From NCBI GenBank assembly GCA_964643895.1, contig CAZXUE010000001.1, positions 17,083 to 81,082 of the forward strand: 64,000 nucleotides of DNA, in the 5' to 3' direction. A program made the translations under genes and the position numbers. The DNA is from an uncultured Candidatus Saccharibacteria bacterium (GTDB taxonomy: Bacteria; Patescibacteriota; Saccharimonadia; Saccharimonadales; UBA7683). Position 1 is the stretch's first letter; every line of letters begins with the position of its first letter. Positions 29,773 through 62,875 of this stretch are shown here, one piece after another. A model generated the notes under the pieces. It did no database searches and was not told the origin of the DNA. It saw only the letters and a program-made list of their open reading frames with translations.

Positions 29773-30735
29773 CTACTGAATGGTCTGGTAACTGCTATCG
29801 AGCCCTTTAAGCAGATCGTTCTGAGTGGCCGCTAGCTCATTGCGCTCAGCTACAATAGAGTTGTAGATTGCGATAATCTCCTTCAGGATAGCTACGTCGT
29901 CATTAAATGTTCTCACAAGCTGGTTAAAGCCTGGCACCAGCTGATTATAGGCTTCGATATCCTCGGAAGATTGGAGCTGATTTAAGCGCGATCTCTGGTT
30001 CTCAATAACGCGTTGTTGGCTAGCCAAGGATGCTTCTTTTTGGTCTTTCTCTTGTTTTAGCTCAGCCAGTTTTGTGTCATATGTTTTAATCTGCGCCTCG
30101 ATCTCGTTAAAGGTATCGGCATACTGCTGGGCATAGCGTACAATCTTAGCTCTATCTTTAAAATAACGTTGATAATGAGCTTCGAGCGAGGCGGGCAAGA
30201 TTGCAATTTCGGTGCCTAAAATGGAGTGAAGCTCGTTATCAACCTGGTTAGGTTCTGATTTTTTATACTGATCAAGTGTGGCAATAAAACGCTCATCTTC
30301 AATTGCAGCTGCTGCTGTACGAAGCTGCTGATTAAGCGCATTTTTTTCAGAAGGAGAGAGCCGTTCATACACCGCATGAAGCAACTCGTGAGCCGCAGTC
30401 ACCTCCTGAACACCATCTAAGCGCTGGTCGGTGACATTATAGATATAAAATCTCTGCTTTGTGTAACACCCAAGCACAACGCTGTGCTCACGATGCACGC
30501 CGCCGCACGCCTGGTTAAACTTTGTAGCATCCAACACTTCCGGCTGGCTTGCTTTATACAAAAATTGACCCTTATTTGTAAGGTTAAGACTTGGCATTAA
30601 GGCTGCGGCTTGCGATTGAAGCGGATTTTGATACACCACATACTGATCTTTCACATACTGGCGGTTAAGGTATACCCACCCCCCCATTGCCAGTAGTAAC
30701 GTAATCCCAAACCCCGCGAATAGTCGACGTTTCAT
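29773..30735 (-). CDS. membrane-anchored coiled-coil protein with HExxH motif
   Basis: MKRRLFAGFGITLLLAMGGW signal-anchor, AAHELLHAVYE (HExxH), and a long Q/E-rich coiled-coil C-terminus. Confidence 0.55.
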   Translation of the reverse strand: MKRRLFAGFGITLLLAMGGWVYLNRQYVKDQYVVYQNPLQSQAAALMPSLNLTNKGQFLYKASQPEVLDATKFNQACGGVHREHSVVLGCYTKQRFYIYNVTDQRLDGVQEVTAAHELLHAVYERLSPSEKNALNQQLRTAAAAIEDERFIATLDQYKKSEPNQVDNELHSILGTEIAILPASLEAHYQRYFKDRAKIVRYAQQYADTFNEIEAQIKTYDTKLAELKQEKDQKEASLASQQRVIENQRSRLNQLQSSEDIEAYNQLVPGFNQLVRTFNDDVAILKEIIAIYNSIVAERNELAATQNDLLKGLDSSYQTIQ

Positions 30736-30837
30736 ACCGTTATTGTATATCAATACCCGGCCTCTTACTATCACCATTCTCAATCATAAGTGCACGGGTA
30801 AAATTAAGCCGGCATAAAAGAACCAGGGCAGCTGAGG

Positions 30838-42770: not shown

Positions 42771-44387
42771 CTAAATAACTCTGTTGATTTCTTCTATAGT
42801 GGTCTCGCCGGCTAGGGCTTTGAGAAGGCCAGCTTGGTACATAGTGATCATGCCTTGTTCCATGGCTTTAGCTTGGATCATATCGGAGGTTGGGATGTGG
42901 TATGGATCGCGGAGCATGGCTTGGATCTCGGGCGTAACGACGAAATCTTCGATGATGCTAATACGACCTTTGTAACCAAAAGGATTTTCCTCAGACTTAC
43001 CAGGTTTGTAGAGGGTGATTTTTGTCAGGTCAGGAGCTTTAATATCTTTTGGAAGGTTTTTCAGATTTTCCCGAATATGGTTTTGAACCGCTTCATCTGG
43101 TTGGTAGGCTTGTTTGGTTTTGTCATCAAGTCTCCTTACAAGGCGCTGACTGATTATCAGTTTCACTGAAGATATAAGGATTGGGTTTACGCCAATCATG
43201 TCTATCATACGTGTAAACGCCTCTGAGGCATTGCCGGCGTGAAAGGTTGAAAGCACCAGGTGGCCGGTTACAGCAGCCTGTAGCGCTGTGCGAGCCGTAT
43301 CAACATCACGAATTTCGCCAACCATTATTACATCTGGGTCAAGGCGCATCACCGCGCGAAGTTTATTGGCAAAACTATCACCTTGCCGGCTGTAAACTGG
43401 AATTTGGCTCATACCATCAAGCCCGTATTCAACCGGATCTTCCAGCGTTATGATTTTATTCTTCGGATCGTTCATTTGTTGAAGAATTGAATAGAGCGTA
43501 GTGGTTTTACCGGAGCCCGTTGGTCCGACCATTAGAACCATGCCGTGCGGATGCGAAACAACCTCATCAATTGGCCTTCGTTCTCGTTCGCTGAGGCCAA
43601 GGTTATCGAGTCGCAGTAAGGCAGTATCCATGTTAAATAAACGCACCACCGCATCTTGACCGTATAATGTCGGTACGGTTTCGATACGCATGTTGAGGAT
43701 TTTTTCAGTTCCATCCTCTTTTGTAATCTTTTGGCTCAAGTGGCCGGTTTGCGCATCTGGTGCCGAGGTAGAAATACCCGCTTTTACCGCAATTGATTGC
43801 TGCAGCTGACGATACTTTTGGTGAGAGATTATTGCAATAAGGTGTAGTGCACCGTCAAGGCGAAAGCGAATGCGCACACCGGTTCGGGCAGTTTCAAGGT
43901 GAATATCTGAGGCTTCAAGCTTATCTGCCTGTGTAATGACATAATCCAGTATGTCGTCGGAAAGCACGCCTTCAAGTGTTTGTGAAACCTGCTGCACGTT
44001 ATCGCTTGCACCTTCATGACTCACGGTAATGTCATCGTAGTGCACCTCTTTTGGCGGATCAAAGCGCAGCATGAACTCTTTAAATCCTTCATTGCTGATC
44101 ATGACAAAATCAATGATTTTATCATTAAAGCGCTCGCGGAGCTTTGTCAGCATTGGCTGCGGCGTACTGATAGTAATTGCAAATGTGTAACCGCTGCCGC
44201 GGTCGTAGAGCGGCACTAACTTGTAGTCATACATCTCTTGGTTGTTCAACACACCAGTTACAAGCTGCACATCTTGAAGCGTGCGGCTATCAACATAGGC
44301 GATCTTTAAAAGACCAGCTCGTTTTTTAGTGTTGAGCTCTTCATTTTCGCGAAACTTGAGATGATCAGCGGCATCATTAAAGGCCAT
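42771..44387 (-). CDS. type II/IV secretion system ATPase, PilB/GspE family
   Basis: N-terminal GspE-N-like domain, GPTGSGKTTT Walker A, the Asp box and the His box. No pilC, pilM or pilin genes are adjacent. Confidence 0.88.
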   Translation of the reverse strand: MAFNDAADHLKFRENEELNTKKRAGLLKIAYVDSRTLQDVQLVTGVLNNQEMYDYKLVPLYDRGSGYTFAITISTPQPMLTKLRERFNDKIIDFVMISNEGFKEFMLRFDPPKEVHYDDITVSHEGASDNVQQVSQTLEGVLSDDILDYVITQADKLEASDIHLETARTGVRIRFRLDGALHLIAIISHQKYRQLQQSIAVKAGISTSAPDAQTGHLSQKITKEDGTEKILNMRIETVPTLYGQDAVVRLFNMDTALLRLDNLGLSERERRPIDEVVSHPHGMVLMVGPTGSGKTTTLYSILQQMNDPKNKIITLEDPVEYGLDGMSQIPVYSRQGDSFANKLRAVMRLDPDVIMVGEIRDVDTARTALQAAVTGHLVLSTFHAGNASEAFTRMIDMIGVNPILISSVKLIISQRLVRRLDDKTKQAYQPDEAVQNHIRENLKNLPKDIKAPDLTKITLYKPGKSEENPFGYKGRISIIEDFVVTPEIQAMLRDPYHIPTSDMIQAKAMEQGMITMYQAGLLKALAGETTIEEINRVI

Positions 44388-51065: not shown

Positions 51066-52514
51066 CTAAATTTGGAGTAGCTTTTTGATAATCTGCTGCG
51101 TCAACCCAGGATTGGCTTGGCCTTTAGACTTCTTCATAACCTGTCCGACCAAAAAACCAATGGCTTTCATCTCGCCATTTTTCACATCTTTCGCCGCTTT
51201 GGCATTTTCAGCCAATACTTCAGCTACAATCTTCTCAATTGCGCCCTCATCCGAAACTTGTAACAGATTTTTTTCTTCAGCAAGCTTTTCGGGATCGACA
51301 CCTTCAGTGATAACACCAACCAAAAGTTCCTTTGCATTTGTTGAGCTAAGTTTGTCCTGGGCCACCATCTGCGCAAGCCCTAGGAGGCCATCTTGCGCCT
51401 GTGGAACCTGCTCCCAGCTTAAAGTCCCATCACCCACAAGCTTCAGCACTTCTCCAGTAAGCCAATTGGCAATGGTCTTTGCGCTTGATTGATCGTTCTT
51501 TGCAATACTTACTACGAAAGTGGCGATAGATGGTTCATCTATTAAAGTGTCCGCTTGCGCAACAGCAACACCGAGCTCAGCAAGCCCTGCTCGCAGTTCA
51601 TGAGGCATTTTTGGCGAACTTGCCTGAAGACTTGCAATGTATTCATCAGTAAGTACAATCGGCGGCACGTCGGGTTCCGGCATATAGCGGTAATCGTGGG
51701 CATCTTCTTTCGTACGCTGCGAGAAGGTTTTTTGTTTGGCATCATCCCAGCCACGAGTTTCTTGCACTATTGGCTCACCTTTTTCCAACTGTTCAATCTG
51801 GCGAGAAACTTCATATTCTATCGATTTCTCAACTGCTTTGAACGAGTTTAAATTTTTAGTTTCTGTTCTGGTGCCAAGCGCATCAGTTTTACTGACGGAG
51901 ACATTTACATCAAACCGCATATTACCGTGATATAAATCGACATCGCTAACGCCAGCATATTTCATTTGAAGATAGAGTGCTTTAGCGTATGCTTTTGCCT
52001 CGGCGGCGCTATGCATGTCAGGCTCCGAAACTATTTCTAGCAGCGGCGTACCTGCGCGATTGAGATCTACGAGTGAATAATCTTTGCCTGCTGGATGAGT
52101 GGATTTACCGGCGTCTTCTTCCATATGAGCGCGAGTAATGCCAATTTTTTTAGCCTCGCCATCAATTATAATCTCAACCCAGCCACCAAGGATGATCGGC
52201 TCTTCAAACTGGCTAATCTGGTACCCTTTGGGCAAATCCGGGTAAAAGTAATGTTTACGGTCAAACTTAGAAAACTTTTGTGGAGTTGTATTAAGAGCAA
52301 ATGCTGCTTTGGCCGCCAACTCAATAGCTTTTTCATTAAGAACCGGAAGTGCTCCGGGCATGCCAAAGCTCACATGCCCAACAGTAGTGTTCGGTGCTTT
52401 GCCACGAGCATCATTTGCCTCACCAGCAAACAACTTACTCTTGGTTTTCAGCTGCACATGGCACTCAATTCCAATTGTCGCTGTATATTGCTTTTTGATG
52501 TCGTCAGAAATCAT
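51066..52514 (-). CDS. gatB: Asp-tRNA(Asn)/Glu-tRNA(Gln) amidotransferase subunit B
   Basis: GatB N-terminal cradle domain and a C-terminal YqeY-like domain (…LVGQVMKKSKGQANP). Confidence 0.93.
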   Translation of the reverse strand: MISDDIKKQYTATIGIECHVQLKTKSKLFAGEANDARGKAPNTTVGHVSFGMPGALPVLNEKAIELAAKAAFALNTTPQKFSKFDRKHYFYPDLPKGYQISQFEEPIILGGWVEIIIDGEAKKIGITRAHMEEDAGKSTHPAGKDYSLVDLNRAGTPLLEIVSEPDMHSAAEAKAYAKALYLQMKYAGVSDVDLYHGNMRFDVNVSVSKTDALGTRTETKNLNSFKAVEKSIEYEVSRQIEQLEKGEPIVQETRGWDDAKQKTFSQRTKEDAHDYRYMPEPDVPPIVLTDEYIASLQASSPKMPHELRAGLAELGVAVAQADTLIDEPSIATFVVSIAKNDQSSAKTIANWLTGEVLKLVGDGTLSWEQVPQAQDGLLGLAQMVAQDKLSSTNAKELLVGVITEGVDPEKLAEEKNLLQVSDEGAIEKIVAEVLAENAKAAKDVKNGEMKAIGFLVGQVMKKSKGQANPGLTQQIIKKLLQI

Positions 52515-52906
52515 TACAAAGCCCTCAGGTCTTTTAGTGATCGTTTGAATTTTCTTATTGCTCGTTCAAATTCTGAGCGGGCTATTTCGGCACCTGGCTC
52601 GTGGACTATTCTGTTGCGTAGTTTATGCGCACGCCACACTCCATCGATATCACTCAATAACCCTGCCGCGTTATTGAGCCTTTCCCCCATGGTTGAACCG
52701 CGAATTCCGGCATGCCGAAGCGCCTGATCAACCAAACTATCAGCGGCAATGAGCGCAACGGTGGTATTATTTTCTGACTCGATTTTATCCCAGTGCTTTT
52801 GAAAGTGTTGCTTATTCAGTCGAGGTTTTGAAAAGCGTGCAACCGCCGCCAACAAAAGCAGCAAGCTCGCTGCAACTAGTACTAATACGATCATACTGCT
52901 ATCCAT
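52514..52906 (-). CDS. membrane-anchored small protein with HEPN-like Rx4H motif, embedded in gatCAB
   Basis: N-terminal TM (IVLVLVAASLLLLLAAV) and a C-terminal AHKLRNRIVHEPG. There is an 8-nt overlap with the gatA stop and a TAATG overlap with the gatB start. Confidence 0.6.
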   Translation of the reverse strand: MDSSMIVLVLVAASLLLLLAAVARFSKPRLNKQHFQKHWDKIESENNTTVALIAADSLVDQALRHAGIRGSTMGERLNNAAGLLSDIDGVWRAHKLRNRIVHEPGAEIARSEFERAIRKFKRSLKDLRAL

Positions 52907-54723: not shown

Positions 54724-55866
54724 ATGCGTCTAAAAGAAGTCGGTCTGGGGGTGGCTCGAAAGATTGTGCCTTTGTCGGCCTTAGATTCCTATGCCGCGCC
54801 AGAACAGATGTCCGAAATGAGAGCATTTCTAGCTCCGGACCATATTGAAAAACTCAAAACCGAGAGCGCAATAAAATACTGGGAAGTACTTGGAGAAGAA
54901 GAACTCATTGAAGGTATTGGAACCCTGCGGCGCATTGGTTTTGTTACTGAACAGGGCTATGCGTACTCGGCAGTAATTGGGATACCAGAAAGTCCCGAAT
55001 CAAATGTACCGATTATTGGCACGAGTGCCTGGTTTACCAGCACAGAAGGGCATAACGAGCATACTATTCGAAACATGGTACGAGCTGGTAATTACGTTTA
55101 TTTTGTCGGTGCTGAAGGAAGTTATGAACCAAACTGCGAAATAAGAACAGACGCAATCAGTCCAATCTCACTGGCTAACTCTGCTGCAGCAGTACTCAAC
55201 TTTTCATACCATACAGCCAAAGAGCTTCGCGCTGAAGGCCATGATATCGATACTGAAGATAGGATCATCATTGGAGAGTCTCGGGGTGCAATGGTCGGTA
55301 TGGGTATTGCAGCTCTCGCTGAAGAGTTTCGGCAGCGAATCATCATGGCGGATCTTGTTGCGCCCTGCCTACCGCGTTCCATGGAGCTGGGCGATATCCG
55401 CCACTTGCTTGAACAAGTTGCACAAGAGCCGATTGAAATAGTCCGCCTTATGGGGCGAATGGCCCTTGGCCGCGCACTGCACTATCCGGCAACATTCGAC
55501 CCAAGTCCATACAGCCTCAAACACCAGCTGGCTATAGGTTTTGCTCTTTTCAGTGGTGAGGCTGGCATGCTTGCTCGCTACATTCCCCGAGAAACTCTCA
55601 TGCATGTCACCACTTTCGATAGTGATTTCGCCTCAATGCGCGAAGAATGGGAGCACATATTTACTGACCACGAAGGTGTTCGCATCACACCACTACGAGG
55701 AAGTCACCTTACCCTTGCGGATCTTGAAACGTTACAGTACATTATTGGTCGCAATAAAGCTCTGCAATACTGCCTCGCCAAGAGCATACCTCTTACTCCT
55801 GAGGTCGTCTTCAATACCGCCCACATCTTAGCACCAGATCAAAAGCCGCTTCCGTACGCCGCATAA
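54724..55866 (+). CDS. alpha/beta hydrolase-fold protein
   Basis: GESRG nucleophile elbow (G-x-S-x-G) in a context consistent with an esterase/lipase fold, 380 aa. Confidence 0.55.
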   Translation: MRLKEVGLGVARKIVPLSALDSYAAPEQMSEMRAFLAPDHIEKLKTESAIKYWEVLGEEELIEGIGTLRRIGFVTEQGYAYSAVIGIPESPESNVPIIGTSAWFTSTEGHNEHTIRNMVRAGNYVYFVGAEGSYEPNCEIRTDAISPISLANSAAAVLNFSYHTAKELRAEGHDIDTEDRIIIGESRGAMVGMGIAALAEEFRQRIIMADLVAPCLPRSMELGDIRHLLEQVAQEPIEIVRLMGRMALGRALHYPATFDPSPYSLKHQLAIGFALFSGEAGMLARYIPRETLMHVTTFDSDFASMREEWEHIFTDHEGVRITPLRGSHLTLADLETLQYIIGRNKALQYCLAKSIPLTPEVVFNTAHILAPDQKPLPYAA

Positions 55867-55910
55867 GAGTCCTATGCGTGATGGAAGTTCTTAGCTCTTA
55901 GGATTAATTG

Positions 55911-56615
55911 CTAACTTGGTGTAAGTATCCAGCGGGTAACCTCTTCACGGAGACGCCGGTATTCTGCCTCCTCAAATTGCATATTAGCGATACAAAAACG
56001 ATAGCCGCTGATATTTGAACAGAACATACTGTCCTGCATGTCCCCGCAATCATGCATCATAAGGCAATCCGTTAAGCCCCCAGATCTGGTGATTCCAAAG
56101 CTATTCGCGCACTGGCCACTATCTTCTGCTCGTATACAAAATGTGAGTGGACCACCTGACTGTGAGGCAAAAACAAACTCACTATCATGAATATTATCAC
56201 TGTAGTAGATATCTTTTGAGCGGAAAATGTCACGGGAATGAAAGACGTTTTCAGATTCTTCCACCATATCAGATTCGGCAACGTTAATACCATCTACCAC
56301 AAACTCCGTGGTTATAGCGTTAATACCGTTCCATTTGGAAAGAATATCCTTTAGATCTTTTATTGGCTGTGTGGCGTAAAGACCCTTTGTAGGTGAAGCC
56401 TCGTTGTTGCGGGCGTTTTCCATTTTGACAAATCGTGAGGCACTAGCCGAAGCACTCCATGTCGTACTGCCATCGGTATAGTCCTTCACTTTATTTGGTA
56501 AGTAGATATCGAAAGTAAACTTCTTAATCGCTTGTTCAAGGCTGAGTGGGTTTTCAACACCAAAAATCTGCTTGATAATCTTATCGAGCGCAATCTTTGC
56601 TTGTTTTTTATCCAT
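55911..56615 (-). CDS. Cys-containing repeat protein, tandem paralog A (234 aa)
   Basis: ~70% identical to paralog B. It has conserved FCIR, CxNSFG, DCxMMHDCGDMQDSMFCSN and FCIANMQFEEAEY blocks. The start lies 13 nt after the paralog B stop, with no SD. Confidence 0.75.
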   Translation of the reverse strand: MDKKQAKIALDKIIKQIFGVENPLSLEQAIKKFTFDIYLPNKVKDYTDGSTTWSASASASRFVKMENARNNEASPTKGLYATQPIKDLKDILSKWNGINAITTEFVVDGINVAESDMVEESENVFHSRDIFRSKDIYYSDNIHDSEFVFASQSGGPLTFCIRAEDSGQCANSFGITRSGGLTDCLMMHDCGDMQDSMFCSNISGYRFCIANMQFEEAEYRRLREEVTRWILTPS

Positions 56616-56628
56616 ACTACAAATTGTA

Positions 56629-57333
56629 CTACGAAACCGGCGAGAGTATCCATTGAATGACTTGGTCTCTTAGCCGATAGTATTCGGCCTCTTCGAACTG
56701 CATGTTTGCAATGCAGAATTGTTTGCCATTCATGTTACTACAGAACATACTGTCTTGCATATCACCACAATCGTGCATCATTATGCAGTTAGTTAAACCA
56801 GCTGAACGAGAAACACCAAAGCTATTCGTGCACCGCACACTATCGTCCGCACGTATGCAAAATGTCACAAAGCCGCTCCGCTGTGAACCAAAAACGAATT
56901 CACTATCAAATACACTGTCACTAAATAGAATGTATTTAGACCTATCAATATTGGTCGATCTAAATACGTTCTCTGAGTTCATAACCATGTCTGATTCCGA
57001 AACATTGAGGGAATCTAATGTAAACTCTGAGGTGGTTAAATTAACGTGTTCCCATTTTGAAAGAAGGTCGGCAAGATCTTTTATAGGCTGCGTGGCATAA
57101 AGACCATCATGTTCATTACCATTATTTCGCGCATTATCAATTTTAATAAACTTAGTAGGATTCGGAGATGATGTCCATGTATCAGATCCGTCTGTACTAT
57201 CTTTGACTTTTTCAGGAAGACGAACATCGAACGCAAATTTTTTGGCGAACTCCTCAATTGAAAGTGGGTTTTCAACACCAAAAATTTGTTTAACAATTTT
57301 GTCGAGCGATTCTTTTGCTTGTTTCTTATCCAT
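56629..57333 (-). CDS. Cys-containing repeat protein, tandem paralog B (234 aa)
   Basis: Collinear with A and C. The N-terminal ~25 codons are ~80% identical to A at the DNA level. Confidence 0.75.
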   Translation of the reverse strand: MDKKQAKESLDKIVKQIFGVENPLSIEEFAKKFAFDVRLPEKVKDSTDGSDTWTSSPNPTKFIKIDNARNNGNEHDGLYATQPIKDLADLLSKWEHVNLTTSEFTLDSLNVSESDMVMNSENVFRSTNIDRSKYILFSDSVFDSEFVFGSQRSGFVTFCIRADDSVRCTNSFGVSRSAGLTNCIMMHDCGDMQDSMFCSNMNGKQFCIANMQFEEAEYYRLRDQVIQWILSPVS

Positions 57334-57345
57334 GCTAAGAGTGTA

Positions 57346-58050
57346 CTACGAAGTAGGTGAAAGTATCCATTGCACAACTTGTTGACGCAAATGTTCGTAC
57401 TCTTGCTGGGTAAACTGCATGTTCGCTATGCAATATTGACGGCCTCGCATGTTGGTACAAAACATACTGTCTTGCATGTCATAGCAATCGTGAATGAAGA
57501 ACGAATTATTGATTTTGCTGCTCCACGAAACACCAAAACTATTAGAACATTCGCCGCTATCTTCAATTCGTATGCAAAAAGCGTTGCCGCCAGATCGAGA
57601 ACCCGCTGCAATAAACTCTGAATCTTCTACGCCATCTGAAAAGAGTACATTTTTGCTGCGGCGGATATCTTGCGATCTATAAACGTTTTCGGATTTCAAG
57701 ATACCATCACTTTCTGCAACACCTATAGATTCAATTTCCCTCTCGGTAGTGGTTAAGTTAATTTCGTTCCACTGCGCCAGAAGCTCCTGCAGATTATTGA
57801 TCGGCTGTTTTTCGCGAAATCCATCGTTTTGCTCGTAGCGTGCTCGCGCATTTTCCATTTTTATAAACTTAGTTGGGTTAGTTGAGGAAGCCCAGGTTGG
57901 CTCGTTGGTTGTAGAATCATAAACCATTTGTGGCAAACGCACATCAAAAGCAAACTTTTGCATAAACTGCTCAAGACTGAGTGGGTTTTGATAGCCACAA
58001 ACCTGGCCAATAATTTTATCGAGTATTTGCTTTGCTTGATCGGCGTTCAT
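57346..58050 (-). CDS. Cys-containing repeat protein, tandem paralog C (234 aa)
   Basis: ~45-50% identical to A and B, with the same length and block order. AGAGGA SD 7 nt upstream. The start lies 12 nt after the ATPase stop. Confidence 0.75.
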   Translation of the reverse strand: MNADQAKQILDKIIGQVCGYQNPLSLEQFMQKFAFDVRLPQMVYDSTTNEPTWASSTNPTKFIKMENARARYEQNDGFREKQPINNLQELLAQWNEINLTTTEREIESIGVAESDGILKSENVYRSQDIRRSKNVLFSDGVEDSEFIAAGSRSGGNAFCIRIEDSGECSNSFGVSWSSKINNSFFIHDCYDMQDSMFCTNMRGRQYCIANMQFTQQEYEHLRQQVVQWILSPTS

Positions 58051-58062
58051 ACTATATCCTCT

Positions 58063-60075
58063 TTACTTTTTAAGTTTTGCTCTACTTGATGATTGACTGG
58101 CTAGAATATCCTGCAAATTAATAAATTCCCTTTGGCCAACAGCCGCTGTTGCCTGAGCTGGGTGTCCGCTTGAAGCTGTGCCAGAACTTGCAGACTGAGG
58201 GACAGCTTGCCGCAAGGCCTCACGCTGTTGCTGCTGTTCAACAAATCTTGCAGGTAGCTCTTGCTTTTGTTCATACGTTTTAAGTTCAGCTTGTTTGTGT
58301 ATGACTGGTGCAGCCGTAACATCAAGCGTACGAGCCTTCACACAAGGTAGAAGCTGGCCGCCAGCTGAAAGGCGCAAAAAGCACTCCCGCGGATGCAGAG
58401 TTGTGAGCATTTGTACCCGCACATCTGATTGTTTTAAGCCCTTTTCCTTCTCGCCTTGCAAGATTTCTTTGGGAATCTCGATATTAAGGTTGCCCTCTAG
58501 TGCACGAGCATCTTCCTCTGAAACTTTAAAGACGTAGTAATTGTAGACATTGGTGAAGATAGCAGCCTGAAGATTCTGCTCGATCTGACCAAAATACTGC
58601 TGCGTTAGTACCACGGAGAGACCGAACTTACGAGCCTCGGCCAAAATTTGCGCCAACGCTGGATTTTGCACCACCGAAACCTCATCAACTATTAAAATGA
58701 CCTTCTGATCGAAAGCCCGTGCCTGCGCTAGAAGAAAAATCTGCTGAATTAGCAATCCGGCAATGGTTTTTACTACCTTCTCGCCCATACTGACCTTATT
58801 GAGTGAGAAAACTGTTAAGAAATTACTGTTTACAATCTGGCCAATCGAGGTGGCGCTTTGATCGTTGCCAGCTAAACTTGGTTGCATTTGCATCTCATCG
58901 ACCAACGAGGCGATTGGCGAGATTGCCTCGTTATAAAATTTAGTACGAATTTCATTAAAATCAGTGCCGAAGAATCGAACAATATTTTCTGGTACGTAAC
59001 CTTGAACATGCGAAAGCAGCTGATTACGGTATTCGATATCTGTTACAAAGCGCTTCAGCGAATCGAGCGACATAACCTGCGCAGTCATCAAAACATACAG
59101 TGAGAACCTTAAGACTCGCTCTAGTTTTGGATTGTGCTGGTCACTAAGCAGCGATTTAAAGAGCGTGCCGGTTAGTTCAGTCGCGGCGGAGATATCGGTT
59201 CCTGTGCCGCCAAAAAGTTCGGTTCCCTCATTTTGGCCTTTAAAGTTGATAACCGTACTCTCTTGAATTCCCTTTAAATCATCTTCCAGCGAGGCGTGTG
59301 GATCAATAACGATTACTCGGTAATTTTGCTTCAAGCCATGAGAATTGGCCAATTTATCCACAAGTAGACTAATCAGTTTGGATTTACCGCTGCCACTAGC
59401 ACCTATGATGAAAGAATGCTTTTCAAAATCGTACGAATTCAGGCCGAGATAGTAATTTTTCGGCAAATATGGAAAAGTATCAACTTCAAAAACGGCACCA
59501 AGGTTTTCGCTCTGCATAATATGCAGTGACTTTTGAATATCGAGATACTTAGTAACCTTTTTGCGCAGATAGCGAGTGTTGGCCGTGAAATCAATTGCCA
59601 GCATAAATGAAGGGAACGCGGCGGCAACTTTATGGTTGATTGTCCAGTTTTTGCCACCATCTTGAAAGTAAAGGTAGCTATGGGTAATGGCTTTTTCAAA
59701 ATTAATTCGACGGCATTTCACTACCAGAAACTGGAGGTCTTTAGCTTTTTTAACCTTATACTTCTCCTTCAAATCAAGAAGATCACCGCCAGCCTTCACC
59801 ACAACCAGCCGCTCTTTGCCAGCCGAGGATGCCGAGGGCAGACCGATCACTTCCGGTTTTACGGGCCGCAAAACTCCTACCTCGATATTATTTGAAAGCG
59901 AGCCAAGGTCGCGGTCACTGAGCACAAAATAACGAATGGTGTTTTCCTCAACCTTAACGATAACCTGAAATTCTTTCAGAACGCCGACATATTGGGAAAA
60001 CACATTATAGAGACGGTTCCAGTCCTCTCTGGTAACCTCGTCTCTCAGCAGGAAAAATTCAAAACAATGTTTCAT
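58063..60075 (-). CDS. FtsK/HerA/VirB4-superfamily P-loop ATPase (AAA_10/DUF87-like)
   Basis: [19 protein letters not shown] (Walker A preceded by a conserved His), VILIVDEVS (Walker B) and [14 protein letters not shown] (the R-K-x-G…TQ motif shared by HerA, VirB4 and FtsK). No TM segments. The ~220-aa N-terminal domain is of unknown type. Confidence 0.8.
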
Positions 60076-60101
60076 AACATAACCGCATAACTATTGTACG
60101 A

Positions 60102-60110
60102 ATTATAACA
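60102..60110 (-). promoter_or_regulatory. extended -10 promoter (TGTTATAAT) for the ATPase-paralog operon
   Basis: The reverse complement of attataaca gives TGnTATAAT, ~27 nt upstream of the ATPase ATG. A TGACA-N9-TGTCA inverted repeat at 60126-60144 overlaps the -35 region. Confidence 0.5.
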
Positions 60111-60153
60111 TTAACTCTTAACAGATGACAGTGCAAAATTGTCAGCCCTTGAA

Positions 60154-62127
60154 TCACATCTTTTCTTTGATTGCAGTAATTTGGTCACGGAGCTCTGCTG
60201 CCTCTTCAAAGCGGAGGTTGGCACTGGCTAGATCCATCTGGCTCTCCAGTTCGGTGATAAGGTGTTTGTATTCGTCTTTTGGAATTTTGTTCAGGTTGAG
60301 ACTAGGTTTCTTTTCTTTTTCTGGTGCGCCGATGATTGCTCGAAGACCTTCGTCTACCACCTTATCCACCCCTGTTGGTGTAATGCCGTGTTTCGCATTG
60401 TGCGCCTCTTGAATGCTGCGCCGGCGTTTGGTTTCATCAATAGTGTACTGCATTGATTTCGTAATGGTATCGCCGTACATAATCACATGACCTTCCTCGT
60501 GTCGGGCAGCGCGGCCAACCGTTTGCACTAACGCCTGCGAACTCCTTAAGAATCCTTCTTTGTCGGCATCCATAATCGCCACTAAGCTTACTTCTGGCAG
60601 ATCTAAGCCTTCACGCAGCAAGTTAATACCCACGAGCACATCGTAGATGCCGAGCCGGAGATCGCGCAAAATGTCAGTTCGATCAAGTGTATCGACATCA
60701 CTATGTAGATAGGCGGTTTTGATATCGAGCTCTTGTAGATATTCGGTTAAATCTTCGGCCATTCGTTTTGTAAGTGTTGTAACGAGCACTCGTTGCCCTT
60801 TTTGAGTGGTTGCACGAATTTCTTTAATTAAATCGTCGATTTGATTTTTAGTTGGGCGAACTTCTATTGGCGGATCAAGCAAGCCAGTTGGACGAATAAC
60901 CTGTTCGGCCGGCTTACCACTTCGCTGCAACTCGTATTCGCCAGGTGTGGCAGAAACGTAAATGACTTGGTTAATGTGATTTTGGAATTCTTCGAACTTG
61001 AGCGGCCTGTTATCAAGTGCTGAAGGCAAACGAAAACCGTGTTCCACCAACACCTCTTTTCTGGCGCGATCGCCGTTATACATACCTCGTACTTGTGGCA
61101 AGCTCATATGGCTTTCATCAACAAGCATTAAAAAATCATCAGGAAAATAATCGAGCAAGGTGGCGGGTTGTTCGCCCGGTTCGCGATTTGTGAGGTATCG
61201 AGAATAGTTCTCAATACCTTTCACAAAACCTGTCTCCTCAAGCATTTCTAGATCAAACTTAGTTCGTTGGCCCAGACGCTGAGCTTCCAGCAGCTTGTTT
61301 TGTGATTCAAATTCATTCAGCCGGTTCTCAAATTCATGACGAATTTTACCAATAGCAACCTTCAGTTTATCGCTGGGCGTAACGTAGTGTGACCCTGGGA
61401 AAATGCGTACCTCCTGTGGCTCTTGAATAATCTCGCCTGTCAACGGATTGATCTCAGTAATTCGATCAACCTCATCCCCAAAAAACTCAATTCTATAAGC
61501 TGATTCCCCGCCTGCTGGAAACACATCAACCACATCACCACGCACCCGAAAGGTTGAACGGTGAAAGTCAATATCGTTGCGTGTATATTGAATATCTGTC
61601 AGATGACGTAAGAATTTGTCTTGCCGACGTTTTTCGCCAACTTTAATAGTTATCGACATCTCCCCGTAATCATCGCGTGATCCAATACCGTAAATACAGC
61701 TGACTGAGGCCACAATAATACAATCACGACCGGTTAACAGTGCCGAAGTGGCCGCATGGCGCAGCCGGTCAATCTCTTCGTTGATCTTAGAATCTTTTTC
61801 GATGTAGGTATCGCTCGAAGGCATATAGGCTTCCGGCTGATAATAATCGAAATAACTAACGAAATAGTGGACTTCATTCTCCGGAAAGAACTGCCGAAAC
61901 TCGCTATACAGCTGTGCAGCTAGAGTTTTATTGTGGCTCAGCACCAAAGTTGGCTTTTGCACAGCTTGAATAATATTAGCCATCGTAAAGGTCTTACCAG
62001 AGCCAGTTACCCCAAGCAGCGTCTGCTCTTTTTGTCCGCCATTCAGACCATCCACCAACTGCTTAATAGCCATTGGCTGATCACCAGTAGGTTGGTATTT
62101 GGTATTGAGCTTAAACGGCCTACTCAT
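60154..62127 (-). CDS. uvrB: excinuclease ABC subunit B
   Basis: [10 protein letters not shown] Walker A, the beta-hairpin, helicase motifs and a C-terminal UVR domain. Confidence 0.95.
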
Positions 62128-62173: not shown

Positions 62174-62875
62174 TTACTGCTGAGCCGGCTCTGAAGAGAC
62201 TGGAGTGTTTGGGTCAGAACTTTGGCTATTGTCACCAGGATCAATTTGGGCCGAAGTCTTGCTGCTTGCCTCAAGCTGGGCAAACTGTTTGAGTAGAGAT
62301 GCTTTATATGGCGTTTCGATATTGGCAGGGTTGCTCGTGCAGGTTTCGGTTTTGGATTTATACATATAAAGATACTTGCTAATTCCTACGACATTAGCGC
62401 CCGCTACTGGAACATCGCCCGCGGCAGCGCGTTCGATGGTGCCGATTTCTCCTTGATAATCACGACAGGTGGCAATCGTAGCCATAGTCGGCGAATAAAG
62501 TTCAACGAAGTCAGCGTTCAAACGTGTGCGAAATCGATATTTGACATCTTTGAACTTCTCATCTAGCGGCAAGCGAATGCCCCACTCTTCAATCGTGAGG
62601 TACGTCACTCCTGGCTCATCAATCACTTCACCGGCAGCCGATAGTTCATCCCTGAGCGTGTCAGCCTCTTGATTTGCTTTATCAATTTGCATTTGGCTAG
62701 CCGATTTTTGCGAACTCTGACCCAATAATAAGCCTCCCGCAAATAGCACTGCCGCTATGAGAAGGCCGCCAACGATCATCAAAATTAAAGAGAGTGCACT
62801 CCTCTGAGGCACTGTTGGCATTGACGTAGACTGCTGTGTGTTTTGCTGTGGGTAGACAGGTTGATCTGGTTGCAT
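62174..62875 (-). CDS. membrane-anchored hypothetical protein (Pro/Gln-rich N-terminus, one TM)
   Basis: LSLILMIVGGLLIAAVLFAGGLLLG TM segment. The C-terminal domain is unrecognised and ends in a Ser-rich tail. Confidence 0.5.
   Translation of the reverse strand: MQPDQPVYPQQNTQQSTSMPTVPQRSALSLILMIVGGLLIAAVLFAGGLLLGQSSQKSASQMQIDKANQEADTLRDELSAAGEVIDEPGVTYLTIEEWGIRLPLDEKFKDVKYRFRTRLNADFVELYSPTMATIATCRDYQGEIGTIERAAAGDVPVAGANVVGISKYLYMYKSKTETCTSNPANIETPYKASLLKQFAQLEASSKTSAQIDPGDNSQSSDPNTPVSSEPAQQ

What the first reader, a model, noticed from the sequence alone, without database searches (positions are those of the whole stretch)
55911..60144. Operon of an FtsK/HerA/VirB4-like ATPase plus three tandem 234-aa Cys-containing paralogs: candidate undescribed system
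One 670-aa soluble P-loop ATPase carries the hallmark HerA/VirB4/FtsK motifs: His-Walker A, a hhhhDE Walker B and an R-K-F-G…TQ arginine-finger block. It is followed at 12-13 nt spacing by three collinear paralogs of identical length that I cannot place in any family. All four genes sit behind their own extended -10 promoter downstream of uvrB. They are compact and co-oriented. Only the first paralog has an SD, which suggests translational coupling. No other secretion, conjugation, phage or known defence components are nearby. HerA/FtsK-type ATPases usually act as translocases (of DNA or protein) partnered with effectors (e.g. Sir2-HerA, NurA-HerA, VirB4 systems, T7SS EssC). An ATPase with a triplicated partner of unknown fold is unusual.
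Basis: partly seen in the sequence, partly recalled or inferred. Interest (0 to 1): 0.85.

Follow-up and report, generated by a model that had tools for sequence, protein, structure and literature searches.

The report
Uncharacterised motor ATPase plus beta-solenoid partner
A soluble HerA/VirB4-type motor ATPase is always encoded next to a previously undescribed rod-like repeat protein. The pair is conserved in Saccharibacteria, in gut Clostridia and, hugely expanded, in Micrarchaeota archaea, and nobody knows what it does.

Summary
On the minus strand, a 670-aa P-loop ATPase (58063-60075) is followed at 12, 12 and 13 nt by three 234-aa paralogs that are 51-57% identical. The window is a housekeeping stretch of a Saccharibacteria chromosome.

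The partner matches nothing in Pfam, NCBIfam, PADLOC, PHROGs or PDB sequences. AlphaFold predicts an N-terminal alpha/beta domain, a hexapeptide-repeat beta-solenoid and a C-terminal helix. Its cysteines mostly occupy a Ser/Cys ladder, so they look structural rather than metal-binding.

The pairing is obligate in the sampled loci. In 73 of 73 metagenome loci with room upstream, the ATPase lies directly upstream, often overlapping the partner gene. One partner copy is the norm, and three copies are a recent expansion under purifying selection.

The same module occurs in gut Clostridia behind an AraC-type regulator. In Micrarchaeota, partner genes form arrays of up to 9 genes.

The function is unknown. 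My best model is a cytoplasmic motor-plus-cap complex, probably acting on DNA (confidence about 0.4). It is a genuinely undescribed module.

The parts
60102..60131 (-). Promoter-like site: -35 CTGTCA, 18-nt spacer, TG-extended -10 TATAAT. It lies between the uvrB stop and the ATPase start.
   Evidence: 10 of 12 matches with TG, the best site in 55700-60300. The number of sites in the region is not above the shuffles, so this is positional evidence only.
58063..60075 (-). Soluble 670-aa P-loop ATPase of the HerA/VirB4/T4CP clade. It has a conserved N-terminal domain of about 200 aa, a RecA-like core with a helical insertion, a disordered linker and a basic C-terminal peptide.
59380..59403 (-). 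Walker A, GASGSGKS (residues 225-232).
   Evidence: Translation. Nearly invariant (at least 90%) in alignment A5. At the same position (about 208-233) in the Micrarchaeota homologues.
58681..58701 (-). Walker B, VILIVDE (residues 459-465).
   Evidence: Translation. D464 and E465 are invariant in A5.
58597..58638 (-). [14 protein letters not shown] block (residues 480-493), the candidate arginine finger and sensor.
   Evidence: Translation. E480, R482, K483, Q492 and Q493 are invariant in A5 and conserved in the Micrarchaeota and Clostridia homologues.
58066..58119 (-). Conserved C-terminal peptide [18 protein letters not shown] (residues 653-670), following a low-complexity linker.
   Evidence: The A5 consensus ends [18 protein letters not shown]. 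The Clostridia homologue ends INLKEIMKSQSTGRRKL. Micrarchaeota homologues end in K/R-rich tails.
58057..58062 (-). Shine-Dalgarno AGAGGA for paralog A. It is the only SD among the three partner genes.
   Evidence: Sequence read.
57346..58050 (-). Partner paralog A (234 aa), the conserved orthologue of the usually single-copy partner gene. It has an N-terminal alpha/beta domain (1-97), a hexapeptide-repeat beta-solenoid (about 99-212) and a C-terminal helix (215-229).
   Evidence: 921 homologues and no Pfam domain. AF2 pLDDT 87.5, pTM 0.83. 154 of 162 single-domain homologues are closest to A. dN/dS 0.021 against L170.
57415..57756 (-). Beta-solenoid region of paralog A (residues 99-212), with repeat [S/C]-x-[N/D]-[V/I]-[Y/F]-x. 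The C-terminal end of this region carries the most conserved stretch (H187 D188 ... D194 ... C198 ... N210).
56629..57333 (-). Partner paralog B (234 aa), an extra copy 57% identical to A.
   Evidence: Retained in sister genome L170. dN/dS 0.040. B-like second copies of 235 aa are present in L001 and L171.
55911..56615 (-). Partner paralog C (234 aa), an extra copy 51% identical to A.
   Evidence: Retained in L170. dN/dS 0.052 and an unusually low dS of 0.30.

Best explanation
This is a self-contained two-gene module with no described counterpart.

SHOWN. The first gene encodes a soluble ATPase of the HerA/VirB4/coupling-protein clade. The second encodes a cytoplasmic-looking, acidic protein built from a small alpha/beta domain, a hexapeptide-repeat beta-solenoid and a terminal helix. 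The two genes are adjacent, co-oriented and often overlapping. I found them this way in Patescibacteria, in gut Clostridia and in Micrarchaeota. The window's three partner genes are a recent, selectively maintained expansion of one ancestral gene.

INFERRED. The ATPase forms a hexameric ring motor, as all solved members of its clade do. The partner is made in fixed proportion by translational coupling and binds the motor as its dedicated cap or adaptor. Its working unit is a dimer, or a ring of alternating subunits. In Micrarchaeota the partner exists only as 'degenerate + motif-bearing' pairs or fusions. This is analogous to a NurA dimer sitting on a HerA hexamer.

The polymer being pumped is most likely DNA. 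The clade consists mainly of DNA translocases, the ATPase is basic (pI 8.8), and in both domains of life it ends in a disordered linker with a Lys/Arg-rich tail. The acidic partner (pI 4.8) would then engage or gate the substrate.

In this genome, A is the canonical subunit. B and C would give alternative or mixed partner assemblies.

For: Solubility: no TM-like windows in the window ATPase and none that is N-terminal in 24 Micrarchaeota homologues (five have single weak internal windows), and TM-like windows in only 5 of 248 partner ORFs.

Linkage: the ATPase lies immediately upstream in 73 of 73 loci with room. The stop-to-start gap is most often -4 nt (22 loci) or -1 nt (10 loci). The same order is seen in L001-L008 in different housekeeping surroundings, in Clostridia and in Micrarchaeota. 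No third gene is conserved.

Dimer unit: in 22 Micrarchaeota gene pairs the downstream gene carries H-N-x-E...C-x-N-x-K in 95-100% of cases, against 14-36% for the upstream gene at the three most discriminating positions (H188, E/D191, C199). The same asymmetry holds between the N and C halves of about 145 fused proteins.

Charge and tails.

Strong constraint: the partner is 48% identical without gaps between Saccharibacteria and Clostridia, and dN/dS is 0.02-0.05. This fits a conserved intracellular interaction rather than an arms race.

Copy number: 1 copy in 47 loci and 2 in 3 loci. Three copies are kept in sister genome L170.
Against: No physical interaction, oligomeric state or substrate was tested. 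A complex could not be modelled here.

The partner has no recognisable nuclease or DNA-binding fold, and its acidity argues against direct DNA binding.

In Micrarchaeota, partner genes far outnumber ATPases: 235 partner genes against about 30 ATPases in 80 loci. Twenty-one complete clusters, 16 of them single genes, have no ATPase within 2.5 kb. That pattern suits cargo or substrates better than a fixed-stoichiometry cap.

The most conserved part of the partner (residues 160-200) is the least confident part of the model, at pLDDT 61-69. The ATPase model itself is only of moderate quality (pLDDT 67.9).
Confidence: 0.4

Rival explanations
1. Coupling-protein and cargo model. The ATPase is a substrate receptor and energiser (T4CP- or EccC-like) for a translocon encoded elsewhere. 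Candidates are the Patescibacteria T4SS or an unknown channel. The beta-solenoid proteins are its exported substrates, or subunits of an extracellular or intercellular structure. In Micrarchaeota they would be exported as heterodimers in which only one member carries the recognition motif, as with Esx and PE/PPE pairs in type VII secretion.
For: [quoted passage not shown] The nearest plasmid relatives are coupling ATPases next to a relaxase and Tcp conjugation genes in Bacillus plasmids.

Patescibacteria hold thousands of orphan T4CP homologues far from virB4, for which exaptation has been suggested (PMC12102498).

Against: The ATPase has no TM anchor. The partner has no signal peptide or TM segment. 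No channel, T4SS or relaxase gene is linked in any of the three lineages.

The partner is extremely conserved, unlike host-facing effectors. The module occurs in ordinary gut Clostridia behind an AraC-type regulator.
Confidence: 0.2
2. Anti-phage or anti-plasmid defence system of the HerA-plus-effector type, as in Sir2-HerA, DUF4297-HerA, TdpAB and DndFGH/DptFGH. The beta-solenoid protein would be a new effector or sensor. The Micrarchaeota arrays would be diversified specificity modules.
Against: The partner matches no PADLOC model. The module lies in housekeeping surroundings, not in islands. Its position is syntenic and stable across species. Sequence conservation across phyla is very high and purifying selection is strong. 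No enzymatic effector domain is detected.
Confidence: 0.12
3. Regulator or mimic model. The acidic, rod-shaped beta-solenoid is a DNA mimic or plug that inhibits or gates the basic DNA translocase (or another DNA enzyme). Pentapeptide-repeat proteins do this for gyrase, and CagZ does it for the Cagbeta coupling ATPase.
For: The partner has pI 4.8 and net charge -8 to -10, with the solenoid part at -6. The ATPase has pI 8.8. The architecture of a rod plus C-terminal helix implies dimers. The Clostridia copies sit behind AraC-type regulators, one of which has a weak Cass2 domain hit. From my own knowledge, Cass2 is GyrI-like, and such regulators commonly respond to xenobiotics.
Against: The repeat is six residues, not five. 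The charge is moderate compared with known DNA mimics. Conserved polar residues cluster at one end rather than along the rod. No gyrase or topoisomerase linkage was seen.
Confidence: 0.1
4. Metal or cofactor-handling complex, analogous to SufB/SufD beta-helix paralogs working with the SufC ATPase. The Cys/His-rich end of the solenoid would bind a metal or Fe-S cluster.
For: Micrarchaeota proteins carry about 4.2% Cys with CxxCxxC runs. Sporadic zf-CXXC and Fer4 hits were found. There is paralog asymmetry with one conserved H/C/E/K site per pair.
Against: Apart from C199, the Cys positions swap freely with Ser, Ala or aliphatic residues and follow the six-residue ladder. His187 is Gln in Clostridia. 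Position 199 is mostly Ser rather than Cys in the N-halves of the fused proteins (Cys in 29-30%). The ATPase is not ABC-type.
Confidence: 0.05
5. Remnant of a virus or mobile element: a packaging or conjugation ATPase plus a fibre-like beta-helix protein.
Against: No relative of the partner was found in 2.9 million viral contigs. The ATPase has no tblastn hit in 50,697 phage genomes. No integrase, capsid or repeat boundaries are present. Base composition is unremarkable. The position is syntenic across species and purifying selection is strong.
Confidence: 0.02

Closest known systems
HerA-NurA (archaeal and Deinococcus DNA end-resection complex)
   Different: The partner is a beta-solenoid, not an RNase-H-like NurA nuclease. 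No Mre11/Rad50 linkage is present. NCBIfam HerA models score 14-16 bits against cut-offs of 800-850. The fold of the N-terminal domain could not be assigned to a HAS barrel.
Type IV coupling proteins (TrwB/VirD4, TcpA)
   Different: There is no N-terminal TM anchor. No relaxase or T4SS lies nearby in any lineage. TraD and VirD4 equivalogs score 15-27 bits against cut-offs of 366-1221. The conserved neighbour is a beta-solenoid protein.
Type VII secretion EccC/EssC with Esx or PE/PPE substrate pairs
   Different: The ATPase has a single ATPase domain, no FHA domain and no TM segment. The partners are about 230-aa beta-solenoids, not about 100-aa helical hairpins. No Ecc/Ess membrane genes are present.
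HerA-effector defence systems (Sir2-HerA, DUF4297-HerA, TdpAB, DptFGH)
   Different: The partner has no known effector domain and no PADLOC match. The context is housekeeping and cross-phylum conservation is high.
Hexapeptide-repeat left-handed beta-helix proteins (acyltransferases, gamma-carbonic anhydrases)
   Same: Six-residue periodicity. An N-terminal alpha/beta domain, a helix of short strands and a C-terminal helix. All Foldseek hits are of this class.

Membership tests
FtsK-HerA superfamily of P-loop ATPases | Walker A, Walker B (hhhhDE) and an arginine-finger block on a RecA-like core | tested here: met
Type IV coupling protein (VirD4/TrwB/TraD) | N-terminal transmembrane anchor | tested here: not met
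   No hydrophobic window of 19 residues reaches the threshold in the 670-aa protein.
Type IV coupling protein (VirD4/TrwB/TraD) | Score above the curated family threshold, and genetic linkage to a relaxase or T4SS | tested here: not met
   TIGR02759 scores 26.9 against 521, TIGR03743 scores 26.6 against 366, and PRK13700 scores 15.4 against 1221. No T4SS or relaxase gene is in the window or recurs in 80 related loci.
Type IV coupling protein (VirD4/TrwB/TraD) | All-alpha domain inserted in the nucleotide-binding domain | tested here: inconclusive
   A helical insertion at about 280-410 is predicted but with low confidence (pLDDT 34-68). Pfam TrwB_AAD_bind scores 40.8 bits over residues 432-521 only.
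HerA (HerA-NurA) | NurA nuclease partner, and a score above the HerA equivalog thresholds | tested here: not met
   The partner has no Pfam or NCBIfam match. HerA_Thermprot scores 14.2 against 800 and HerA_antiphage_2 scores 15.6 against 850.
HerA (HerA-NurA) | N-terminal HAS-barrel domain | not tested
VirB4 | Family score, and linkage to VirB3/VirB6/VirB8-type membrane genes | tested here: not met
FtsK/SpoIIIE | 4TM N-terminal region, FtsK motor score and gamma domain | tested here: not met
   PF01580 scores 12.9 bits against a cut-off of 24. There is no TM segment.
Known anti-phage HerA systems (PADLOC) | Both the ATPase and its partner match models of one system | tested here: not met
   The ATPase has only weak hits (mad8 at 47 bits, HerA models at 13-31 bits). 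The three partners have no hit.
Hexapeptide-repeat left-handed beta-helix (Pfam Hexapep) | Six-residue repeat periodicity | tested here: met
   Ser/Cys at profile positions 109, 115, 121 ... 157 and, after a 3-residue shift of register, 166, 172 ... 196. Strands occur every 6 residues.
Hexapeptide-repeat left-handed beta-helix (Pfam Hexapep) | Canonical [LIV]-[GAED]-x2-[STAV]-x signature, a Pfam match or a significant fold match | tested here: not met
Pentapeptide-repeat DNA mimics (Qnr/MfpA) | Five-residue repeat A(D/N)LXX | tested here: not met

The most novel reading that the evidence does not exclude
The pair is a functionally new kind of cellular machine rather than a variant of HerA-NurA or of a coupling protein. 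It would be a soluble ring ATPase that assembles, remodels or exports a dedicated family of beta-solenoid proteins. It is shared by Bacteria and Archaea. In Micrarchaeota it has been amplified to dozens of genes per roughly 1-Mb genome, where it could underlie host interaction or a novel intracellular structure.
Probability: 0.3. Interest if true: 0.9.

Novelty: new variant of a known kind. Interest (0 to 1): 0.72.

Why it matters
The module joins a new branch of a well-known motor superfamily to a protein family that no database describes. The partner family has at least 1478 clusters at 50% identity.

It is tightly conserved in three very different lineages:
- Saccharibacteria and other Patescibacteria, much of whose gene content is still uncharacterised.
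- Very abundant uncultured gut Clostridia. One protein variant is indexed in 630 blocks of the assembly collection.
- Micrarchaeota (DPANN), where partner genes form arrays of up to 9 genes and occupy several loci per genome.

It may account for part of the unexplained population of 'orphan T4CP homologues' reported in Patescibacteria.

Working out its function would annotate thousands of genes. It could also reveal a new way that HerA/VirB4-type motors are used. Because the module has only two genes, it is easy to test biochemically.

Tried and rejected
Database searches on the partner were all negative. These covered Pfam, NCBIfam, PADLOC and PHROGs, a PDB sequence profile search, and Pfam on 34 Micrarchaeota members. 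That last search gave only sporadic zf-CXXC and Fer4 hits caused by CxxC runs.

Tests for a viral origin were negative. The viral-contig scan found no relative of the partner, and tblastn of the ATPase against phage genomes found nothing.

Plasmid tblastn found only distant (25-28% identical) coupling ATPases of Bacillus conjugative plasmids.

I rejected the idea of metal-binding cysteines because the Cys positions swap with Ser and follow the repeat.

Early results suggested a module specific to ultrasmall episymbionts (CPR plus DPANN). I rejected this once the same pair turned up in ordinary Clostridia contexts with fab genes, sortase and dockerin.

I checked the published Southlakia Tn-seq data. 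The annotated T4CP homologue SEML1_0293 is 921 aa and non-essential. Its neighbour is a GNAT acetyltransferase, so it is a different family. No orthologue of this module could be identified in the text held.

The 'cysteine-rich repeat' preprint (10.64898/2026.06.07.730663) concerns an unrelated secreted repeat. CedD of Sulfolobales is a distant VirB4-like paralogue, scoring 30.8 bits against a cut-off of 600.

Conserved third genes were sought in 80 Patescibacteria loci and none was found beyond lineage synteny. In Micrarchaeota, only transcription factors recur.

Full report
**Observation.** Four co-oriented minus-strand genes follow uvrB. They are a 670-aa ATPase (58063-60075) and three 234-aa paralogs: A at 57346-58050, B at 56629-57333 and C at 55911-56615. 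The gaps between them are 12, 12 and 13 nt. B and C are 57% and 51% identical to A and collinear, with a single one-residue gap. The ATPase carries [21 protein letters not shown] and [14 protein letters not shown]. Only A is preceded by a Shine-Dalgarno sequence (AGAGGA). The best promoter-like site of the region, a TG-extended TATAAT, lies at 60131-60102. Base composition is unremarkable.

The rest of the window is housekeeping: rpoB/C, trigger factor, hisS, recG, tyrS, PBP1, radA-like, clpB-like, nusA, pepN, pilB-like, dnaE, recF and gatCAB. Homologues carry Saccharibacteria names, so this is a Saccharibacteria (Patescibacteria) chromosome.

**The ATPase.** Pfam places it in the FtsK-HerA superfamily: TrwB_AAD_bind at 40.8 bits and DUF87 at 36.6 bits, both above cut-off. 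Every curated equivalog falls far below threshold, including CedD, TraD, EccC, HerA and VirB4. The PADLOC and PHROG hits are generic: mad8 at E 5.5e-13 and phrog_5156, of unknown function, at E 4.6e-20. PDB sequence searches reach only Walker A.

It has no TM-like segment and is basic, with pI 8.8. It ends in a conserved peptide, [18 protein letters not shown]. That peptide recurs in Clostridia homologues. In Micrarchaeota it is replaced by Lys/Arg-rich tails.

Column statistics show a hexapeptide repeat, [S/C]-x-[N/D]-[V/I]-[Y/F]-x. Ser or Cys occupies every sixth position from 109 to 157, and again from 166 to 196 after a 3-residue shift of register. Cys exchanges freely with Ser, and in some places with Ala or aliphatic residues. 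The proteins are acidic (pI 4.8-5.0) and have no signal peptide or TM segment.

**Linkage in Patescibacteria.** The partner family has 921 hits and the ATPase family 1116. In eight contigs with different housekeeping surroundings, the ATPase is immediately followed by the partner. In a metagenome scan, all 73 loci with room upstream have the ATPase directly upstream on the same strand. The stop-to-start distance is most often -4 or -1 nt. No third gene recurs beyond lineage synteny. More distant members come from other Patescibacteria, for example Dojkabacteria.

Copy number is one in 47 loci and two in 3 loci. Relatives with 85% ATPase identity have two copies. The sister genome GCA_046350615.1 (92% ATPase identity) has the same three copies. 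Paralog A is the conserved orthologue. All three copies are under strong purifying selection, with dN/dS 0.02-0.05. The triplication is thus a recent, maintained expansion and not the core of the system.

**Beyond Patescibacteria.** A profile search of 1.84 billion representatives finds 1478 clusters. Many are proteins of about 525 aa carrying two tandem copies of the domain. These belong to Micrarchaeota (DPANN archaea), with 359 confirmed stretches and several loci per genome.

Six-frame analysis of 80 Micrarchaeota loci shows tandem arrays of up to 9 partner genes. An ATPase homologous over its full length to the window's (26-30% identity, E about 1e-50) sits at one end in 29 clusters. Twenty-one complete clusters, mostly single genes, lack an ATPase within 2.5 kb. 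The neighbours that recur are transcription factors of the Lrp/AsnC, HTH_10 and TrmB types, not membrane proteins.

Single-domain genes occur as ordered pairs. The upstream member is degenerate. The downstream member carries a nearly invariant H-N-x-E...C-x-N-x-K motif. The N and C halves of the fused proteins show the same asymmetry. This indicates a hetero-dimeric, or alternating, working unit with one functional site.

A third large clade lies in uncultured gut Clostridia, including Ca. Scatovivens and 'Clostridia bacterium' MAGs. There an AraC-type regulator, a 627-aa ATPase and a 231-234-aa partner (overlapping the ATPase gene by 8 nt) lie among fab genes, sortase, dockerin and SpaA/MucBP adhesin genes. 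The partner is 48% identical to paralog A over 221 residues without a gap. The ATPase is 35% identical over its full length. His187 is Gln there, so that residue is not universal.

**Interpretation.** Shown: this is a conserved, self-contained pairing of an ATPase with a beta-solenoid protein. It is present in two domains of life, sits in chromosomal housekeeping contexts, and is absent from viral contigs and phage genomes.

Inferred: by analogy with all solved members of the clade, the ATPase is a ring motor. The translationally coupled partner is its dedicated binding partner, probably as a dimer or alternating ring, as NurA is on HerA. DNA is the most likely substrate. The clade consists largely of DNA translocases, and the ATPase is basic with Lys/Arg-rich tails. 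I put about 0.4 on this cytoplasmic motor-plus-cap model.

The main rival (about 0.2) treats the ATPase as a coupling protein and the solenoids as cargo or exported building blocks. It is favoured by the many-partners-few-motors pattern and the Esx or PE/PPE-like pairing in Micrarchaeota. It would also fit the published puzzle of orphan T4CP homologues in Patescibacteria (PMC12102498). It lacks any membrane anchor, signal peptide or linked channel.

Defence (0.12), regulator or DNA mimic (0.1), metal scaffold (0.05) and mobile-element remnant (0.02) are less well supported, for the reasons given under each.

**Literature.** No paper found describes the partner family or the pairing. The Southlakia Tn-seq tables list a different T4CP-like gene, with a GNAT neighbour, as non-essential. 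No orthologue of this module could be identified there.

**Verdict.** It is a new variant of the known theme of a HerA/VirB4-type ATPase with an operonic partner. The partner family is new, and the phylogenetic spread is unexpected. The function remains open, and the module's small size makes it directly testable.

Noticed in passing
window 55911-60075 compared with L170 6001-10166: Synonymous divergence from the sister genome falls steeply along the operon. The ATPase is saturated (pS 0.82), A has dS 2.1, B has 0.91 and C has 0.30, while dN/dS stays at 0.02-0.05. This could reflect recent recombination or gene conversion at the 3' end of the operon.
   Followed up: no
L009-L088 (Micrarchaeota genome contigs), e.g. 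L047 36-16775 and L021 4147-16025: Tandem arrays of up to 9 partner-family genes, either about 255-aa pairs or about 525-aa fusions, with one ATPase at the end. There are several such loci per genome, plus solitary copies. Lrp/AsnC-, HTH_10- and TrmB-type regulators recur beside them.
   Followed up: partly
L172 7222-10702, L174 7232-10705, L176 5229-8696: The gut Clostridia version of the module is always preceded by an AraC-family (HTH_18) regulator, one with a weak Cass2 domain hit. One protein variant (P0486) is indexed in 630 blocks of the assembly collection, so it is very common in gut metagenomes.
   Followed up: partly
L174 and L175 8124-10035: In one Clostridia lineage the ATPase is called as two ORFs of 449 and 198 aa. 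This points to a frameshift, a pseudogene or an assembly error.
   Followed up: no
window 54724-55866 (+): A convergent 380-aa ORF with no Pfam or NCBIfam match contains a GESRG motif, which resembles the nucleophile elbow of alpha/beta-hydrolases. A similar ORF (L091) or an Abhydrolase_1 gene (L171) sits next to the module in related genomes.
   Followed up: no
window 52514-52906 (-): A 130-aa ORF with a hydrophobic N-terminus is inserted between gatA and gatB. It has no Pfam match and is conserved at this position in related genomes (L001, L170, and 8 of the 80 metagenome loci).
   Followed up: no
window 62174-62875 (-) and 29773-30783 (-): Two further ORFs, of 233 aa and 336 aa, have no Pfam match. 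The 233-aa ORF has a Gln/Pro-rich start followed by a hydrophobic segment.
   Followed up: no
window 42771-44387 (-): A PilB-type T2SSE ATPase (E 2.4e-89), part of the type IV pilus machinery known to matter for Saccharibacteria episymbiosis. It is unrelated to the finding.
   Followed up: no
P0250 (308 aa, from the representative search): A partner-family domain is preceded by about 70 residues that, judged by eye only, look like the start of a peptidase-U32-like protein. It could be a fusion or a chimeric gene call.
   Followed up: no
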